Source: Candidatus Nanopelagicales bacterium
Lineage (GTDB): Bacteria; Actinomycetota; Actinomycetes; S36-B12; UBA10799
Reading direction: 5' to 3'
DNA length: 64,000 nucleotides
Assembly (NCBI GenBank): GCA_041393775.1
Contig: JAWKJM010000007.1
Location: 3,279 to 67,278, forward strand
The number at the start of each line of letters is the position of its first letter. Position 1 is the first letter of the stretch. The translations under genes were made by a program, and so were the position numbers. This document shows, piece by piece, positions 35,767 through 38,757 of this stretch. A model generated the notes under the pieces. It was not told the DNA's origin. It worked only from the letters and a program-made list of their open reading frames with translations, and ran no database searches.

Positions 35767-38757
35767 ATGCCTGAGCCATTGGTCCCAGGGGTGCTGGAGT
35801 TGCGGGTCCACGGCGTGTCCGGAACCCCGCCGCACGAGATGCTGGGCGTCCCTGCCTCGGACGTGGGTCAAGTGGCCGGTGACCGGCTCACCGGCTTGTA
35901 CCGATGCCGAAAAGGCACTCCGTACGGCGTGACCTTGCCATCCTTCGCAGCCGTCGAAGCGTACTCGTGGGGAGCGCTGACGTCAGGGGCCGCAGGATTC
36001 CTCGGGTGGGTGCGACGAGCAGCCTGGCTGACGCTGTTGCCTTTCGCCCTCGGAAATCTCTCGTACTGGGCCCGGCCGGAGCTCGATGTCGATACCGGGA
36101 CCCGCAAGGCCACCGCCATGGTCGTGCGAGTCGCGTGTCTGCTGCTGACCCTGCTGCTGATCGCCGGCTTGTGCCTGGTCGGCATCGACTTGGTGGCGTG
36201 GCAGTGCTTCCGGGGCGGGGCGATGGTGTGCCCTTCGCTGCCGTCAGTCCTGCAGTTCCTGGACCGACCCCCCTGGGACAGCACGACCCGGCGTGTGCTG
36301 GCCGGATCCTTGTTGCCGCTGTCGGCGCTGGGCGGGCTGTGGTTCCTGTCCCGGCAATCGATGGCCCGGTACGAGGAGGTGGTTCCGCAGCCGGTGGCGC
36401 AGCCCCAGAAGTCGCAGATTCTGAGCCGGCGCAGGATGTGGAACGGCAACGACCGGACCCATCGTCTGCAACGGCTACATCTTGCGGCCGGCGCAGCAGT
36501 CGTCGTGGTGTCGGGCTCTTTCCCGCTGGCCGATCTTGGCGGGACCTCCCACGAGCGGGGCTTGGCGCTGATCGGCCTGCTCGCGGCGCTGGTGGTGCTC
36601 CTGGCGACCGTCGCCGTCGCGATGAGCTATCAGGACGGGATCGACTTCCCAGGCAGGCTCGAGGAGGCAGGACGGGGAAGGAAGGCGGCCAGCCACGCGG
36701 CCCGGTTCGTGGGCTGGGGCGTTGTGGTGCTGCTTGCGGCATACGGCTATCTGCTCTTCACAGCCACCACGGACGAGAGTTCAGATCAAGCCGGCCCGCT
36801 ACGTGGCCACAACCTGATCGTCGGCGTGCTCCTGTTCGTGCTGCTGGCGTGCGTGGCTTGGCTGGTCTTCGCCTCAGACCGGCCGTGGGTCGCCCTGCTC
36901 ATCCCGCTCGCGCTACTCGGGATCTCGCTCGGGGTCTTCCGACGGTGGTGGTGGCCCGTGGCAGGGTTGACGCTCGCGGTGGTGGTGCTCGGCCTGTGGA
37001 TTCAGCATCGCCGTTCGGATCCCGAGGCGGACAAGCCACGGGCCTGGCATGGCGCGGGGGCGGCCGTGATCCTGGGGGCGGCGGTGTGGATCGCGGCGAT
37101 CTTCACCACCTCGACCACGGTGCTGGCCGCCGACTGGTTCAACGGCGGCGGGCAATCGGTGGCTGATCTGCAGGCAGGCTTCCGTGAGGATGCTTCGCCA
37201 GGTGCTCGTGCCGCGCAGTTGCAGACGGACCAGCCGCTGCTCGCCGCCAGCGGCCCGGTCGCGATCGAGCGCGCCGCGGTCAGTATCGACGCAAAGGGCG
37301 TGGTCACCGTGTGGTCGGGAACGCTGTCGGTGGACGCCCTGGCGGCGGCCCGTGCGGTCGAGGGAGTCAGTCATCAGGTGCCCGGTCTGGACCTGGCCGC
37401 GGGCAGGGTCCTCGTGATGGATCCGCCGGTGAGACTGCTCGACAGTTGCGTCAGCGCCGGCAGCGTCTCCGGGGAGACTCCGATTTGTTCCGACCGGGCC
37501 TTCGGGGGATCGGACACTGTTGGCACGTCCGGTGAGTATGTGGCTTCCGGGACGCTGACGCCGCAGGGACCCGTCCAAATCCGGGCGACCGAGCCGGGCG
37601 GTGTGCATGTCGGGGTGGTGAAGGTGCCACAGGAACCATTGATCGTGCCGCAAGTCCTCGTCTGGTTGGCACTGGCGATGCCAGCGTGGCTGCTGGCCAC
37701 CATCGTCACGTCGTTGTTGTGCTTCCTGTACTTCCGGCGCCGGGCCCGGGCTGCTGTTGTCGAGCAGACCATGTTCGATGCCGTCGTCGGAGTGTTTCGG
37801 CGGGGGAGCACGAAGGCGAGGCTCACAGCCGGATTCACCCATCGCGCGGAGCGTCTCCTCGGCCTCTTCGGTGCGATCACGTCGGTCACGGCGGTGGCGG
37901 TGATGATCGGCGCTTCGACCGGATCGCCGCCGTGGCAGGGGTACGAGCCACTGCGGAGTGTGGCGGTCATCGGTCTCTGGACGGCCCTCGGTGTGTCAGC
38001 CGGACTGATCGCGGTGGCGGCCCGGCTGCAGAAGTCGGAAGGTGCTCGACGGGCAGTCGGGGTGCTCTGGGACCTCAGCACGTTCTGGCCCCGGGTCGCC
38101 CACCCACTCGGTCCGCCCTGCTATGCGGAGAGGGTCGTGCCGGAGATCACCTCCAGGATCGGTTGGGCGTCCGGCCTGGGAGCGAACGTCGTCCTCTCAG
38201 GACACAGCCAGGGCTCACTGATCGCAGTGGCGGCGGTAGCGCAGTTGGGTGACGACGAGGTTGAGAAACTGCGTGTGGTGACCTACGGCTCGCAGTTGCG
38301 AACCTGGTATGGGCGCATCTTCCCGGGAGTCCTTGGACCCGCAGTCATCGGGAACCACCCATTGACCCACCGGGCAGGTTTCGGCAGTGCCGCCCCGGAC
38401 GCGCCGGATACCGGTGGGCCGGATGACCCCGCACCCCCAGGGTTCCCCGTCGCTCCAGGGAGTCTGGCCGCCCGGCTGGCCATCGGGTCGGTCGCACCGC
38501 ATTGGGTCAATCTCTTCCGGCGCACAGATCCGATCGGATTCCGCGTGTTCTCGGACCAGCAGTGTCGTGTCGACCGGTACGTCAGCGAGTACTCGCCCGG
38601 GTCCGCCGGTGACCCGGCTCCAAGCCTTCAGACCCACAGCCGCTACCAGTTCGCGGACGAATATCAGGGGGTCGTGGAGAACTGGTACCGGGAGCCCGGT
38701 TACTCGCACGGCGACGTGGGCAAGGTCTGCCGGATCGACTTCCTCGTTCCGGACTGA
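35767..38757 (+). CDS. 996-aa polytopic membrane protein with putative split alpha/beta-hydrolase (lipase-like) fold
   Basis: The N-terminus has [11 protein letters not shown] (35809-). At least 10 predicted TM helices follow, with a ~150-aa soluble insert. The C-terminus has [14 protein letters not shown] (Ser codon 38206-38208), RRTDPIG and QTHSRY. Confidence 0.7.
   Translation: [996 protein letters not shown]

What the first reader, a model, noticed from the sequence alone, without database searches (positions are those of the whole stretch)
35767..38757. 996-aa membrane protein that looks like an alpha/beta hydrolase split by a ~780-residue polytopic insertion
The first 25 residues contain [11 protein letters not shown]. 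This is the beta-strand plus HG oxyanion-hole motif that normally lies about 60-80 residues before the nucleophile of lipase-like alpha/beta hydrolases.

The nucleophile elbow GHSQG appears only at about residue 810 (Ser codon 38206-38208). Plausible acid and base residues follow, in RRTDPIG (Asp codon ~38527) and QTHSRY (His codon ~38635).

Between these motifs lie at least 10 hydrophobic helices. There is also a ~150-residue Ala/Gly/Val-rich soluble segment ([14 protein letters not shown]...[12 protein letters not shown]) and a conserved-looking [28 protein letters not shown] box.

I know of no characterised enzyme with this architecture.
Basis: inference. Interest (0 to 1): 0.65.

Follow-up and report, generated by a model that had tools for sequence, protein, structure and literature searches.

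The report
Serine hydrolase split by membrane domain
This gene encodes a member of a large, unstudied actinobacterial protein family in which a lipase-like enzyme fold is cut in two by about 680 residues of membrane-spanning helices and reassembles on the inner face of the membrane, an arrangement not described for any characterised enzyme.

Summary
ORF 35767-38757 (+) encodes 996 aa, and every motif is at the stated codon.

- H15-G16 is invariant (290/290). S814 is conserved in 305/310, D921 in 255/260 and H957 in 251/256 family sequences.
- AlphaFold gives a confident single assembly (pLDDT 91.8, pTM 0.93). An N-terminal four-strand module is followed by a short helical hairpin, 12 TM helices with a variable beta-rich outer domain, then an invariant box and the helix-strand-Ser-helix elbow.
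- The C-terminal part alone matches only alpha/beta hydrolases (cutinases, LCAT, CALB), and only partially, as a half-domain would.
- Coevolution, computed independently of AlphaFold, links residue 14 to residue 820 (rank 4 of ~38,500 pairs; 2.51 against at most 1.31 in shuffles). It also pairs the N-terminal strand with the nucleophile strand (p=3.5e-4).
- The positive-inside rule and the cysteine pattern put both catalytic halves in the cytoplasm.

The family has at least 2,731 clusters at 50% identity and is found in at least 595 species. All 80 loci examined are Actinomycetota. It has no Pfam or NCBIfam family, no conserved neighbours and no characterised member. The public "TgpA transglutaminase" label is an artefact.

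The likely function is a cutinase-like acyl-ester hydrolase or transacylase acting on a membrane lipid. The substrate is unknown.

The parts
35767..38757 (+). Complete gene, 996 codons plus stop
   Evidence: identical to public protein P0001
35767..35994 (+). N-terminal catalytic half (residues 1-76). It holds strand 9-15, the HG motif, a beta-hairpin (33-47) and strand 61-67, which I read as canonical beta3 and beta4 of the hydrolase sheet.
   Evidence: AF2 secondary structure with pLDDT 85-96; DCA couplings to the C-terminal half
35809..35814 (+). H15-G16, the putative oxyanion-hole motif directly after strand 9-15
   Evidence: invariant in 290/290 sequences that cover it
35995..36069 (+). 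Two short helices (80-88 and 91-101), predicted to be a cytoplasm-side re-entrant or interfacial hairpin. Invariant in A1: R84, W87, L90, P92, N97, W101.
   Evidence: carries 1.7 K+R on average, atypical for a TM helix; the TM count must be even for both halves to lie on one side
36070..37140 (+). First block of the insert: TM helices 1-9 and their loops (residues 102-458). The outer loop 141-176 has invariant Q146, C147 and C155.
   Evidence: AF2 helices; hydropathy; loop charge and Cys statistics
37141..37650 (+). Beta-rich domain (residues 459-628), predicted extracytoplasmic, with a conserved Cys pair (C561, C574). It is variable, and largely missing from the ~740-aa Streptomyces-type members.
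   Evidence: no Pfam match
37651..38034 (+). TM helices 10-12 and the cytoplasmic amphipathic helix 675-691 (invariant in A1: R685, H692, R693, E695)
   Evidence: DCA coupling 691-923 at rank 6 links this helix to the acid loop
38035..38754 (+). C-terminal catalytic half (residues 757-996): helix 758-773, the invariant box, helix alphaB 787-803, strand beta5 807-813, the nucleophile, helix alphaC 815-825, strands beta6 to beta8, and the acid and His loops
   Evidence: only sub-threshold hits to alpha/beta-hydrolase clan families
38059..38145 (+). Family signature box G765-E793 ([29 protein letters not shown]), with 20 of its 29 positions invariant in 117 sequences
   Evidence: pLDDT falls to 53-62 when the C-terminal part is modelled alone; DCA links it to the N-terminal hairpin and to Q815
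38200..38214 (+). Nucleophile elbow G812-H-S814-Q-G816 (Ser codon 38206-38208)
   Evidence: H813, S814 and G816 invariant in A1; S814 in 305/310 of the wider set; lies between strand 807-813 and helix 815-825
38527..38529 (+). Asp921, putative catalytic acid, after strand 913-917
   Evidence: 116/117; 255/260
38635..38637 (+). His957, putative catalytic base
   Evidence: 117/117; 251/256

Best explanation
The gene encodes a membrane-integral serine hydrolase of the alpha/beta-hydrolase superfamily, closest in its local features to cutinase and lipase enzymes. Its catalytic domain is built from two pieces that are far apart in the sequence.

How the domain is assembled:
- Residues 1-76 supply the first two core strands and the HG oxyanion-hole motif.
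- Residues 757-996 supply helix alphaB, the nucleophile strand and elbow (Ser814), the remaining strands, Asp921 and His957.
- The ~680 residues between them are inserted at the beta4/alphaB junction. They form a short re-entrant hairpin, 12 TM helices and a variable outer beta-rich domain.
- Because the number of TM helices is even, both halves lie on the cytoplasmic side, where they reassemble into one domain seated on the cytoplasmic face of the TM bundle.

How it probably works:
- Invariant elements of the insert line or buttress the active site. These are the hairpin, the amphipathic helix 675-691 and the W-D-x-x-T-F-W-P-R...P-P-C-Y-x-E-R box.
- The most likely activity is cleavage or transfer of an acyl ester on a membrane-embedded lipid or glycolipid presented from the inner leaflet. 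The TM insert would play the role that lids and caps play in soluble lipases.

What is shown: the gene, the family, residue conservation, confident model secondary structure, coevolution between the halves, and charge and cysteine asymmetry.

What is inferred: the sheet topology in three dimensions, the cytoplasmic location, and catalytic competence.

What is speculative: the substrate class, and whether the enzyme hydrolyses or transfers the acyl group.
For: Gene and family:
- 996-aa ORF; 358 homologues; 2,731 cluster representatives, 1,412 of them at E<=1e-30; at least 595 species hits, and all 80 loci listed are Actinomycetota.

Conservation:
- H813, S814, G816 and H957 are invariant in alignment A1, and H15, G16 and D921 are at least 90% conserved.
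- In 329 distinct sequences, HG is 290/290, S814 305/310, D921 255/260 and H957 251/256.

Structure:
- The full-length AF2 model has pLDDT 91.8 and pTM 0.93, with the N-terminal 70 residues at pLDDT 85-96.
- The element order is E9-15 / HG / hairpin / E61-67 / insert / H787-803 / E807-813 / S814 / H815-825 / E835-840 / E913-917 / D921 / E936-938 / H957 / H964-974. This is the canonical beta3-beta4-alphaB-beta5-Nu-alphaC-beta6-beta7-acid-beta8-His order.

Fold:
- Foldseek hits for both models are lipases, cutinases, LCAT/LPLA2, CALB and monoacylglycerol lipase, with probability up to 0.97. They cover only 57-103 well-superposed columns.
- Pfam gives only sub-threshold hits, all to alpha/beta-hydrolase clan families: Lipase_3 in 12/25, Abhydrolase_1 in 7, DUF676 in 5, Cutinase in 4 and PE-PPE in 3.

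The two halves touch:
- DCA pair 14-820 is rank 4, score 2.51 against a shuffle maximum of 1.03-1.31. Ile14 occurs only with Ala820.
- Eight N-C pairs exceed every shuffle. They reach helix alphaC, the acid loop, the His loop, helix alphaB and the box helix.
- The beta3 x beta5 block has 6 couplings in the top 500 against 0.93 expected (p=3.5e-4). The best single ranks are beta3-beta4 at 7, beta5-beta6 at 6 and 8, and beta6-beta7 at 71. Non-neighbouring blocks have none.
- The box loses confidence when the C-terminal part is modelled alone.
- Insert-to-catalytic coupling 691-923 is rank 6.

Topology:
- Short loops on the hydrolase side average 28.3 K+R (0.188 per residue), against 6.9 (0.088) on the other side.
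- The other side has 2.0 Cys in loop 141-176 and 2.05 Cys in the beta domain.
- There is no hydrophobic signal-like N-terminus.
Against: - All Foldseek E-values are weak (>=0.04) and TM-scores are at most 0.34.
- No Pfam alpha/beta-hydrolase model reaches its gathering score.
- Profile comparisons of the fused halves with contiguous hydrolases aligned only the elbow, 38-59 columns, and did not bridge the junction (LipA and cutinase sequences recalled from memory). The same was true against PDB sequences.
- DCA rests on about 167 effective sequences, and only the top ~30 couplings stand clear of noise. Shuffling also removes phylogeny, so the control is lenient.
- There is no experimental datum, no conserved neighbour and no characterised homologue to indicate a substrate.
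- Topology rests on statistical rules, not on a dedicated predictor or on experiment.
Confidence: 0.62

Rival explanations
1. The hydrolase is not split. The C-terminal 240 residues form a self-sufficient, minimal serine hydrolase tethered to a membrane domain. The N-terminal 76 residues are an unrelated small domain, and its HG is a coincidence.
For: Sequence and profile comparisons with contiguous hydrolases never extend into the N-terminal segment. The C-terminal part alone still folds with pLDDT 83. Minimal hydrolases such as cutinases have only five strands.
Against: - The C-terminal part has only four core strands and gives only partial fold matches.
- HG is invariant in 290/290, which is more conserved than the nucleophile.
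- DCA pair 14-820 is rank 4, and beta3 x beta5 is enriched at p=3.5e-4.
- The N-terminal module has no helix layer of its own and is modelled at pLDDT 85-96 within a pTM 0.93 assembly.
- No second oxyanion-hole donor is evident in the C-terminal part.
Confidence: 0.1
2. It is a working serine enzyme, but its substrate is not a membrane lipid. For example, it could be a peptidase or thioesterase acting on a protein, a carrier-bound substrate or a small molecule. The 12-TM module would then be a transporter or sensor fused around it.
For: - The alpha/beta-hydrolase fold supports many chemistries.
- Weak sub-threshold hits include Thioesterase and Palm_thioest.
- Residues on the outer face of the insert are invariant (Q146, C147, C155, N459, G460, P722), which suggests the insert does more than anchor the protein.
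- The full model has faint, non-significant resemblance to MATE, MFS and Nramp transporters.
Against: - The best local matches are cutinases, lipases and LCAT/LPLA2, and the G-x-S-Q-G elbow with the conserved Gln is the cutinase type.
- Transporter matches have probability at most 0.44 and TM-score at most 0.28.
- The insert has no internal repeat.
- The invariant residues cluster at the cytoplasmic membrane interface around the catalytic domain.
Confidence: 0.18
3. It is a bacterial counterpart of the eukaryotic GPI inositol deacylase PGAP1/Bst1, with the lipase domain on the extracytoplasmic side, sitting in a crater of the TM domain next to a beta-sandwich domain.
For: PGAP1 combines a 10-TM domain, a lipase domain and a jelly-roll beta-sandwich domain, and it holds the lipid chains in the TM domain (PMC10761859). 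The protein studied here also has a TM bundle, a lipase-like domain and a beta-rich domain. Actinobacteria make inositol lipids (general knowledge).
Against: - The PF07819 (PGAP1) model does not match at any threshold tried, and no PGAP1 chain appears among the Foldseek hits.
- The charge and cysteine asymmetry puts the hydrolase on the cytoplasmic side and the beta domain on the opposite side. In PGAP1 both are lumenal.
- The PGAP1 lipase domain is contiguous, not split.
- The family is sporadic in Mycobacteriales.
Confidence: 0.06
4. It is a TgpA-type transglutaminase-family membrane protein, as the public record of the identical protein says.
For: Pfam TgpA_N matches residues 305-495 at E=3.1e-10, 40 bits against a cut-off of 30. 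The NCBI name is 'transglutaminaseTgpA domain-containing protein'.
Against: - The match covers only hydrophobic helices.
- It falls below the cut-off in a 65%-identical homologue (20.7 bits) and is absent from 8 other members and from nearly all of the 120 listed homologues.
- No transglutaminase core domain is present anywhere.
Confidence: 0.02

Closest known systems
Cutinases / carbohydrate esterase family 5 (Pfam PF01083), e.g. the fungal cutinases 8jct, 3gbs, 4pse
   Same: - They are the best local structural matches (Foldseek probability 0.85-0.97).
- They are the best non-artefact PDB sequence hit (4psc).
- They share the G-x-S-Q-G elbow with a Gln after the nucleophile (in cutinases this Gln contributes to the oxyanion hole; textbook knowledge of Fusarium cutinase).
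- Both have a minimal sheet and the Ser-Asp-His order.
   Different: - Cutinases are small (~200 aa), secreted, disulfide-bonded and contiguous.
- Here the fold is interrupted by ~680 residues after the second core strand, faces the cytoplasm and carries a unique invariant box.
- The Pfam Cutinase score is far below the gathering threshold (best E=0.005).
Mycobacterial Chp1/Chp2 (cutinase-like, PE-PPE domain acyltransferases)
   Same: It is a membrane-bound cutinase-like serine enzyme. Chp1 acts on a glycolipid in the cytosolic leaflet and is inhibited by tetrahydrolipstatin (PMC3318749). PE-PPE gives sub-threshold hits in 3/25 members.
   Different: Chp1 has a single N-terminal TM helix followed by a contiguous catalytic domain, and it sits in a lipid-biosynthesis gene cluster. 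The family studied here has a 12-TM insert inside the fold and no conserved gene neighbours.
PGAP1/Bst1 GPI inositol deacylase
   Same: A lipase-type serine hydrolase is integrated structurally with a polytopic TM domain that holds the substrate's acyl chains, and there is an accessory beta-sandwich domain (PMC10761859). It is the best-characterised precedent for how such an enzyme could work.
   Different: PGAP1 is eukaryotic. Its lipase domain is contiguous and lumenal, on the same side as the jelly-roll domain. No sequence or Foldseek match was found here, and the predicted sidedness is opposite.
LCAT / lysosomal phospholipase A2 family
   Same: They recur as Foldseek hits around the elbow (probability 0.7-0.9). 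They are hydrolase or transacylase enzymes whose alpha/beta core carries inserted membrane-binding and cap domains (general knowledge).
   Different: They are soluble, secreted eukaryotic enzymes, and their inserts are small soluble subdomains, not TM bundles. The aligned region is only ~57-100 columns.
Pfam DUF676 and Lipase_3 (class 3 lipases)
   Same: They are the best Pfam hits at the elbow: DUF676 at E=0.0076-0.054 and Lipase_3 in 12/25 members. UniRef names some members 'Lipase (Class 3)'.
   Different: All scores are below the gathering cut-offs, the matches cover only ~40-60 residues, and the architectures are unrelated.

Membership tests
alpha/beta-hydrolase superfamily (Pfam clan AB_hydrolase) | Nucleophile elbow (small-x-Ser-x-small) at the tight turn between a beta-strand and an alpha-helix | tested here: met
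   G812-H-S814-Q-G816 lies between E807-813 and H815-825. It is invariant in A1 and S814 is in 305/310 of the wider set.
alpha/beta-hydrolase superfamily (Pfam clan AB_hydrolase) | Catalytic triad in the order nucleophile, acid, histidine, with the acid after strand beta7 and the His after the last strand | tested here: met
   S814, then D921 after E913-917, then H957 after E936-938, all conserved. Their proximity in space could not be measured.
alpha/beta-hydrolase superfamily (Pfam clan AB_hydrolase) | Oxyanion-hole residue on the loop after strand beta3 (HG type), with beta3 adjacent to the nucleophile strand beta5 | tested here: met
   H15-G16 follows E9-15 and is invariant in 290/290. The DCA beta3 x beta5 block is enriched at p=3.5e-4, and pair 14-820 is rank 4. 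This is coevolutionary support, not atomic.
alpha/beta-hydrolase superfamily (Pfam clan AB_hydrolase) | A match above the gathering score to any member family model | tested here: not met
   Only sub-threshold hits: DUF676, Lipase_3, Abhydrolase_1, Cutinase, PE-PPE.
Cutinase (PF01083 / CE5) | Pfam model above its 25.9-bit cut-off; a contiguous ~200-aa secreted domain with conserved disulfides | tested here: not met
   The best score is 11.7-13.3 bits. The domain is split, predicted cytoplasmic, and has a single invariant Cys785.
PGAP1/Bst1 (PF07819) | PGAP1 model match; a contiguous lipase domain on the extracytoplasmic or lumenal side | tested here: not met
   No PF07819 hit at E<=1 to 10. 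The hydrolase side is rich in K+R and there is no signal sequence.
TgpA transglutaminase-like membrane proteins | A TgpA_N membrane region together with a transglutaminase core domain | tested here: not met
   TgpA_N passes its cut-off only in this protein. It is sub-threshold or absent in 9 homologues, and there is no transglutaminase core hit anywhere.
Chp1/Chp2-type PE-PPE acyltransferases | PE-PPE domain (PF08237) above its cut-off after a single TM anchor; located in an acyl-trehalose or sulfolipid gene cluster | tested here: not met
   PE-PPE gives E=0.04-0.06 in 3/25 members. The protein has 12 TM helices and no conserved cluster.
This uncharacterised actinobacterial family (no database name) | N-terminal E-[LI]-R-[VI]-H-G strand, the W-D-x-x-T-F-W-P-R-x-x-H-P-x-x-P-P-C-Y-x-E-R-V-x-P-E box, the S-G-H-S-Q-G elbow, R-R-x-D-P-[LI]-G, and T/G-H-S-x-Y | tested here: met
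   All are present in the window protein and conserved across A1 and the wider set.

The most novel reading that the evidence does not exclude
The family may be a new class of membrane-integral lipid-remodelling enzyme. In this reading a 12-TM module of previously unseen fold, inserted inside a cutinase-like catalytic domain, forms the substrate cavity. It may also deliver a lipid from within the bilayer or from the outer leaflet to a cytoplasmic Ser-Asp-His site, coupling lipid extraction or translocation to deacylation or transacylation in a single polypeptide. The invariant outer-face residues (Q146, C147, C155, N459, G460, P722) and the optional outer beta domain would then take part in substrate capture.
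Probability: 0.3. Interest if true: 0.75.

Novelty: new variant of a known kind. Interest (0 to 1): 0.62.

Why it matters
- If the split fold is confirmed, this would be the first described case, as far as I could find, of a polytopic membrane domain inserted inside an alpha/beta-hydrolase fold. It extends the known ways this very common fold accepts insertions, from lids and caps to a whole TM bundle.
- It defines a family with thousands of members, widespread in Streptomyces, Nocardioidaceae, Micromonosporaceae, Lentzea, Cellulomonadaceae and freshwater Nanopelagicales, that currently has no family model and a misleading public label.
- It gives a concrete, testable target for actinobacterial membrane-lipid biology: Ser814 probes, knockout lipidomics and cryo-EM.
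- It corrects the 'TgpA transglutaminase' annotation.
- It does not open a long-standing question by itself. The substrate and the physiological role remain unknown, and the patchy distribution in Mycobacteriales suggests an accessory function rather than an essential one.

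Tried and rejected
- **Direct test of a fused construct.** I tried to fold residues 1-76 joined by a linker to residues 757-996.
- **Fused-domain profile against PDB sequences.** The hits were linker artefacts plus elbow-only matches to cutinases and lipases.
- **hhalign of the fused profile against contiguous hydrolases.** Only 59 and 38 columns around the elbow aligned, and the junction was not bridged.
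- **Natural unsplit relatives.** Short two-stretch hits in the exhaustive search (P0196, P0222, P0200, P0228, P0243) turned out to be N-terminally truncated fragments. Only the best 150 of 2,731 hits are listed, so unsplit relatives are not excluded.
- **Operon context.** Three long contigs and 80 genome loci show no neighbour shared beyond closely related taxa.
- **TgpA relationship.** Rejected.
- **Rv3193c.** I recalled it from memory as a possible M. tuberculosis homologue. Nothing supports this, the papers found carry no functional information, and the M. asiaticum search found no M. tuberculosis-type hits. I dropped it.
- **Inositol acyltransferase or deacylase of PIM biosynthesis.** I considered this and disfavoured it because the family is sporadic in Mycobacteriales.
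- **Internal repeat in the TM insert.** None found.
- **Literature searches.** Searches on the architecture and on the GHSQG motif found no description of this family.

Full report
**1. Observation**

The window holds an ORF at 35767-38757 on the + strand, 996 codons from ATG. A GGGGG run lies 6 nt upstream of the ATG. A public protein of a 'Candidatus Nanopelagicales bacterium' MAG is 996 aa and 100% identical (P0001).

- [11 protein letters not shown], residues 12-22
- GHSQG, residues 812-816 (Ser814 codon 38206-38208)
- RRTDPIG (Asp921 codon 38527-38529)
- QTHSRY (His957 codon 38635-38637)
- the VLWDL...VVPE box, residues 766-793

The region is ~66-68% GC with strongly negative AT skew, as expected for a gene rich in hydrophobic codons. 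High-GC DNA throws up long spurious ORFs; several overlap this gene on other frames. This frame is validated by homologues.

**2. A large, unnamed family**

The word-indexed search found 358 homologues, mostly 930-1,090 aa and full length, and almost all without a Pfam domain or a name. The exhaustive profile search of 1.84 billion representatives found 2,731 clusters at E<=0.001 and 1,412 at E<=1e-30. Many match in two stretches (profile ~5-476 and ~614-965), so the middle segment is the variable part.

All 80 loci listed are Actinomycetota:
- Nocardioides, Marmoricola and Aeromicrobium
- Streptomyces, as ~740-aa forms
- Micromonospora, Lentzea, Dactylosporangium, Planomonospora, Cellulomonas, Isoptericola and Frankiales
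- one Mycobacterium, M. asiaticum (869 aa)

A search seeded with the M. asiaticum protein shows the family is sporadic in Mycobacteriales. It found a few environmental Mycobacterium and Rhodococcus and no M. tuberculosis-type hits. Public names are 'hypothetical protein' or 'integral membrane protein', sometimes the automatic 'Lipase (Class 3)', and once 'FtsH-binding integral membrane protein'. NCBIfam has no model.

**3. Conservation**

In a 117-sequence alignment with 31% mean column identity:
- H813, S814, G816, H957 and D936 are invariant.
- H15, G16 and D921 are at least 90% conserved. Every sequence with a residue at 15-16 has HG; the remainder are gaps from truncated N-termini.
- The 765-793 box is invariant at 20 of its 29 positions.

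In a wider set of 329 distinct sequences, including the short Streptomyces, Micromonospora and Mycobacterium forms:
- HG is 290/290.
- S814 is 305/310, D921 is 255/260 and H957 is 251/256.
- W68 is 303/303 and N97 is 305/305.

**4. Structure**

AlphaFold2 with the family alignment gives a confident single assembly: mean pLDDT 91.8, pTM 0.93, with the N-terminal 70 residues at 85-96. The elements run in this order:
- strand 9-15, followed by H15-G16
- short helix 22-26
- beta-hairpin 33-38 / 43-47
- strand 61-67
- two short helices, 80-88 and 91-101
- twelve long helices between 111 and 756, interrupted by a beta-rich domain at 491-617
- helix 758-773 and the box loop
- helix 787-803
- strand 807-813, then Ser814, then helix 815-825
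- strand 835-840
- strand 913-917, then Asp921
- strand 936-938, then His957
- helix 964-974

Read without the insert, this is the canonical beta3-(HG)-beta4-alphaB-beta5-Nu-alphaC-beta6-beta7-acid-beta8-His-alphaF order of an alpha/beta hydrolase. The insert sits at the beta4/alphaB junction.

**5. Fold comparison**

Foldseek of the whole model against the PDB gave no significant match. The only recurring enzyme hits were lipases: CALB, cutinase 4pse (58 columns, rmsd 1.9 A, probability 0.96) and LCAT/LPLA2. The TM part gave only low-probability transporter resemblances.

A second model of residues 757-996 alone reached pLDDT 83. It hit alpha/beta hydrolases almost exclusively: cutinases at probability 0.85-0.97, LCAT/LPLA2, CALB, monoacylglycerol lipase, PhaC and PPT1. 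All had E>=0.04 and TM<=0.34, with only 57-103 well-superposed columns. That is what a half-domain lacking the first strands should give.

In this isolated model the invariant box drops to pLDDT 53-62, from 72-92 in the full-length model. Its structure therefore depends on the rest of the protein.

At the sequence level only the elbow region resembles known families, always below threshold:
- DUF676, E=0.0076-0.054
- Lipase_3 in 12/25 members, Abhydrolase_1 in 7, Cutinase in 4, PE-PPE in 3

The PDB profile hits are cutinase 4psc and Proteus-type lipases.

The domain belongs to the superfamily by its defining local features. It belongs to no existing family.

**6. Do the two halves form one domain?**

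I aligned 336 family sequences to a family HMM and ran mean-field DCA on residues 7-76 plus 757-975 (230 sequences, about 167 effective).
- Pair 14-820 came out at rank 4 of ~38,500. Residue 14 is in the strand just before HG, and residue 820 is in helix alphaC. Its score of 2.51 is in the same range as bona fide contacts such as 811-840 and 808-835 (beta5-beta6) and 10-62 (beta3-beta4).
- Shuffling which N-terminal half goes with which C-terminal half gave maxima of 1.03-1.31 in four trials. Eight observed N-C pairs exceed that.
- Pair 14-820 shows size compensation: Ile14 occurs only with Ala820.
- The other strong N-C pairs connect the N-terminal module to the acid loop (28-922), the His loop (27-962, 63-961), helix alphaB (42-790) and the box helix (42-772).
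- In a block test over 28 strand-strand combinations, only two were enriched at p<0.001. One was the N-terminal strand against the nucleophile strand (6 couplings in the top 500 against 0.93 expected, p=3.5e-4). The other was the internal hairpin, which serves as a positive control.
- The best single ranks fall on beta3-beta4 (7), beta5-beta6 (6 and 8) and beta6-beta7 (71). Non-neighbour blocks such as beta3-beta6, beta4-beta5 and beta5-beta7 have none.

This is the pattern of the canonical sheet order beta4-beta3-beta5-beta6-beta7. An extended DCA that included cytoplasmic elements of the insert kept 14-820 at rank 4. It added 691-923 at rank 6, linking the amphipathic helix 675-691 to the acid loop.

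The effective sequence number is modest and the shuffle control ignores phylogeny. I treat this as good but not atomic evidence.

**7. Topology**

Using the model's helices, the short loops on the side carrying both catalytic halves average 28.3 Lys+Arg per protein (0.188 per residue) across 117 sequences. The other side averages 6.9 (0.088).

The other side also carries exactly two conserved cysteines in loop 141-176 and about two in the beta-rich domain. No member has a hydrophobic signal-like N-terminus.

By the positive-inside rule, the catalytic domain faces the cytoplasm and the beta-rich domain faces outward.

Segment 77-101 consists of two short helices with conserved arginines in the middle. 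It is best read as a re-entrant or interfacial hairpin. That leaves 12 TM helices, an even number, as a reassembling split domain requires.

**8. Context**

In the window the gene follows a CPBP/Rce1-like protease and a lipoprotein-like zinc metallopeptidase on the same strand. It precedes a DUF4389 protein.

None of these, nor any other gene family, is found next to homologues across genera. This was checked in three long contigs and by clustering all neighbours of 83 loci. Synteny exists only within Streptomyces plus Streptacidiphilus and within close Nocardioidaceae. The gene stands alone, and some genomes carry two copies.

**9. Mechanism**

Shown:
- a conserved Ser-Asp-His set in canonical order
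- an invariant HG
- an elbow in strand-turn-helix context
- contact between the halves, and between the insert and the acid loop, by coevolution
- charge and cysteine asymmetry

Inferred:
- an active serine hydrolase whose domain reassembles on the cytoplasmic face of a 12-TM bundle
- an active site walled by the hairpin, the helix 675-691 and the invariant box

Speculative:
- The substrate. The cutinase/lipase/LCAT-like local features, the insertion point and the concentration of invariant residues at the membrane interface all point to an acyl ester on a membrane lipid or glycolipid. The insertion point corresponds to a substrate-binding loop region in cutinases (my knowledge of the Fusarium enzyme, not tested here).
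- The enzyme could hydrolyse or transfer the acyl group.

Two characterised systems show such chemistry is feasible:
- Chp1, a cutinase-like acyltransferase acting in the cytosolic leaflet (PMC3318749)
- PGAP1, where a TM domain cradles the lipid chains under a lipase domain (PMC10761859)

The protein studied here is a member of neither family.

**10. The public annotation**

The 'TgpA' label comes from one Pfam hit on hydrophobic helices. That hit vanishes in homologues, and no transglutaminase core is present. It should be disregarded.

**11. Verdict**

The catalytic superfamily is ordinary. The split architecture, the invariant box and the TM insert have no detectable relatives in the PDB by sequence or by Foldseek and no family model. 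This is a new variant of a known kind.

The interest is real but bounded by the lack of any functional lead.

Noticed in passing
window 33862-34689 (+) and 34805-35653 (+): Directly upstream on the same strand lie a CPBP/Rce1-like intramembrane protease (PF02517, E=2.7e-15) and a lipoprotein-like putative zinc metallopeptidase (PF04228, E=1.1e-11). This makes a run of three membrane or hydrolase genes here, but the arrangement is not seen beside homologues in other genomes.
   Followed up: partly
window 39092-39748 (+), 40095-41600 (-), 42073-43194 (+), 28962-30623 (+): Downstream and nearby genes are a DUF4389 membrane protein, a three-domain multicopper oxidase, an Abhydrolase_3 esterase (E=7.8e-68) and a beta-lactamase-family protein. 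These are ordinary annotations with no evident link to the finding.
   Followed up: partly
window 35767-38757; public protein P0001: The identical NCBI protein is named 'transglutaminaseTgpA domain-containing protein'. The name rests on a TgpA_N hit to hydrophobic helices that does not hold in homologues, so it is a probable mis-annotation that could spread to relatives.
   Followed up: yes
window 31847-33805 (-), overlapping 32273-33331 (+): A 652-aa ORF lies antisense to a zinc-dependent dehydrogenase gene, and several ORFs of 200-420 aa overlap the studied gene on other frames. These are typical high-GC shadow ORFs and not genes.
   Followed up: no
window 6001-8000 and 30001-32000: AT skew is strongly negative (-0.22 and -0.21), as large as over the TM-rich gene at 36-38 kb (-0.225). 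This may mark other membrane-protein genes. I did not examine them.
   Followed up: no
L018 8268-10796 (-) and equivalent positions in ~40 Streptomyces loci: In Streptomyces the family gene is followed on the opposite strand by a conserved ~840-aa protein that appears, from reading its sequence only (it was not scanned against any family library), to have beta-helix-type repeats and a C-terminal AAA+ ATPase region. The pairing is conserved only within Streptomyces and Streptacidiphilus, so it may simply reflect genus-level synteny.
   Followed up: partly
L020 and L069 (Micromonospora sp. NPDC005710); L023 and L060 (Streptomyces afghaniensis): Two separate loci in the same genome encode family members, so paralogues exist.
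   Followed up: no
P0109 (1,412 aa): One family member carries an extra ~390 residues before the family region (the match starts at residue 393). It could be an additional N-terminal domain or a gene-calling artefact.
   Followed up: no
window 37141-37650 (residues 459-628): The outward-facing beta-rich domain has a conserved Cys pair but no Pfam match. It is largely missing from the ~740-aa Streptomyces-type members, so it is an optional module of unknown role.
   Followed up: partly
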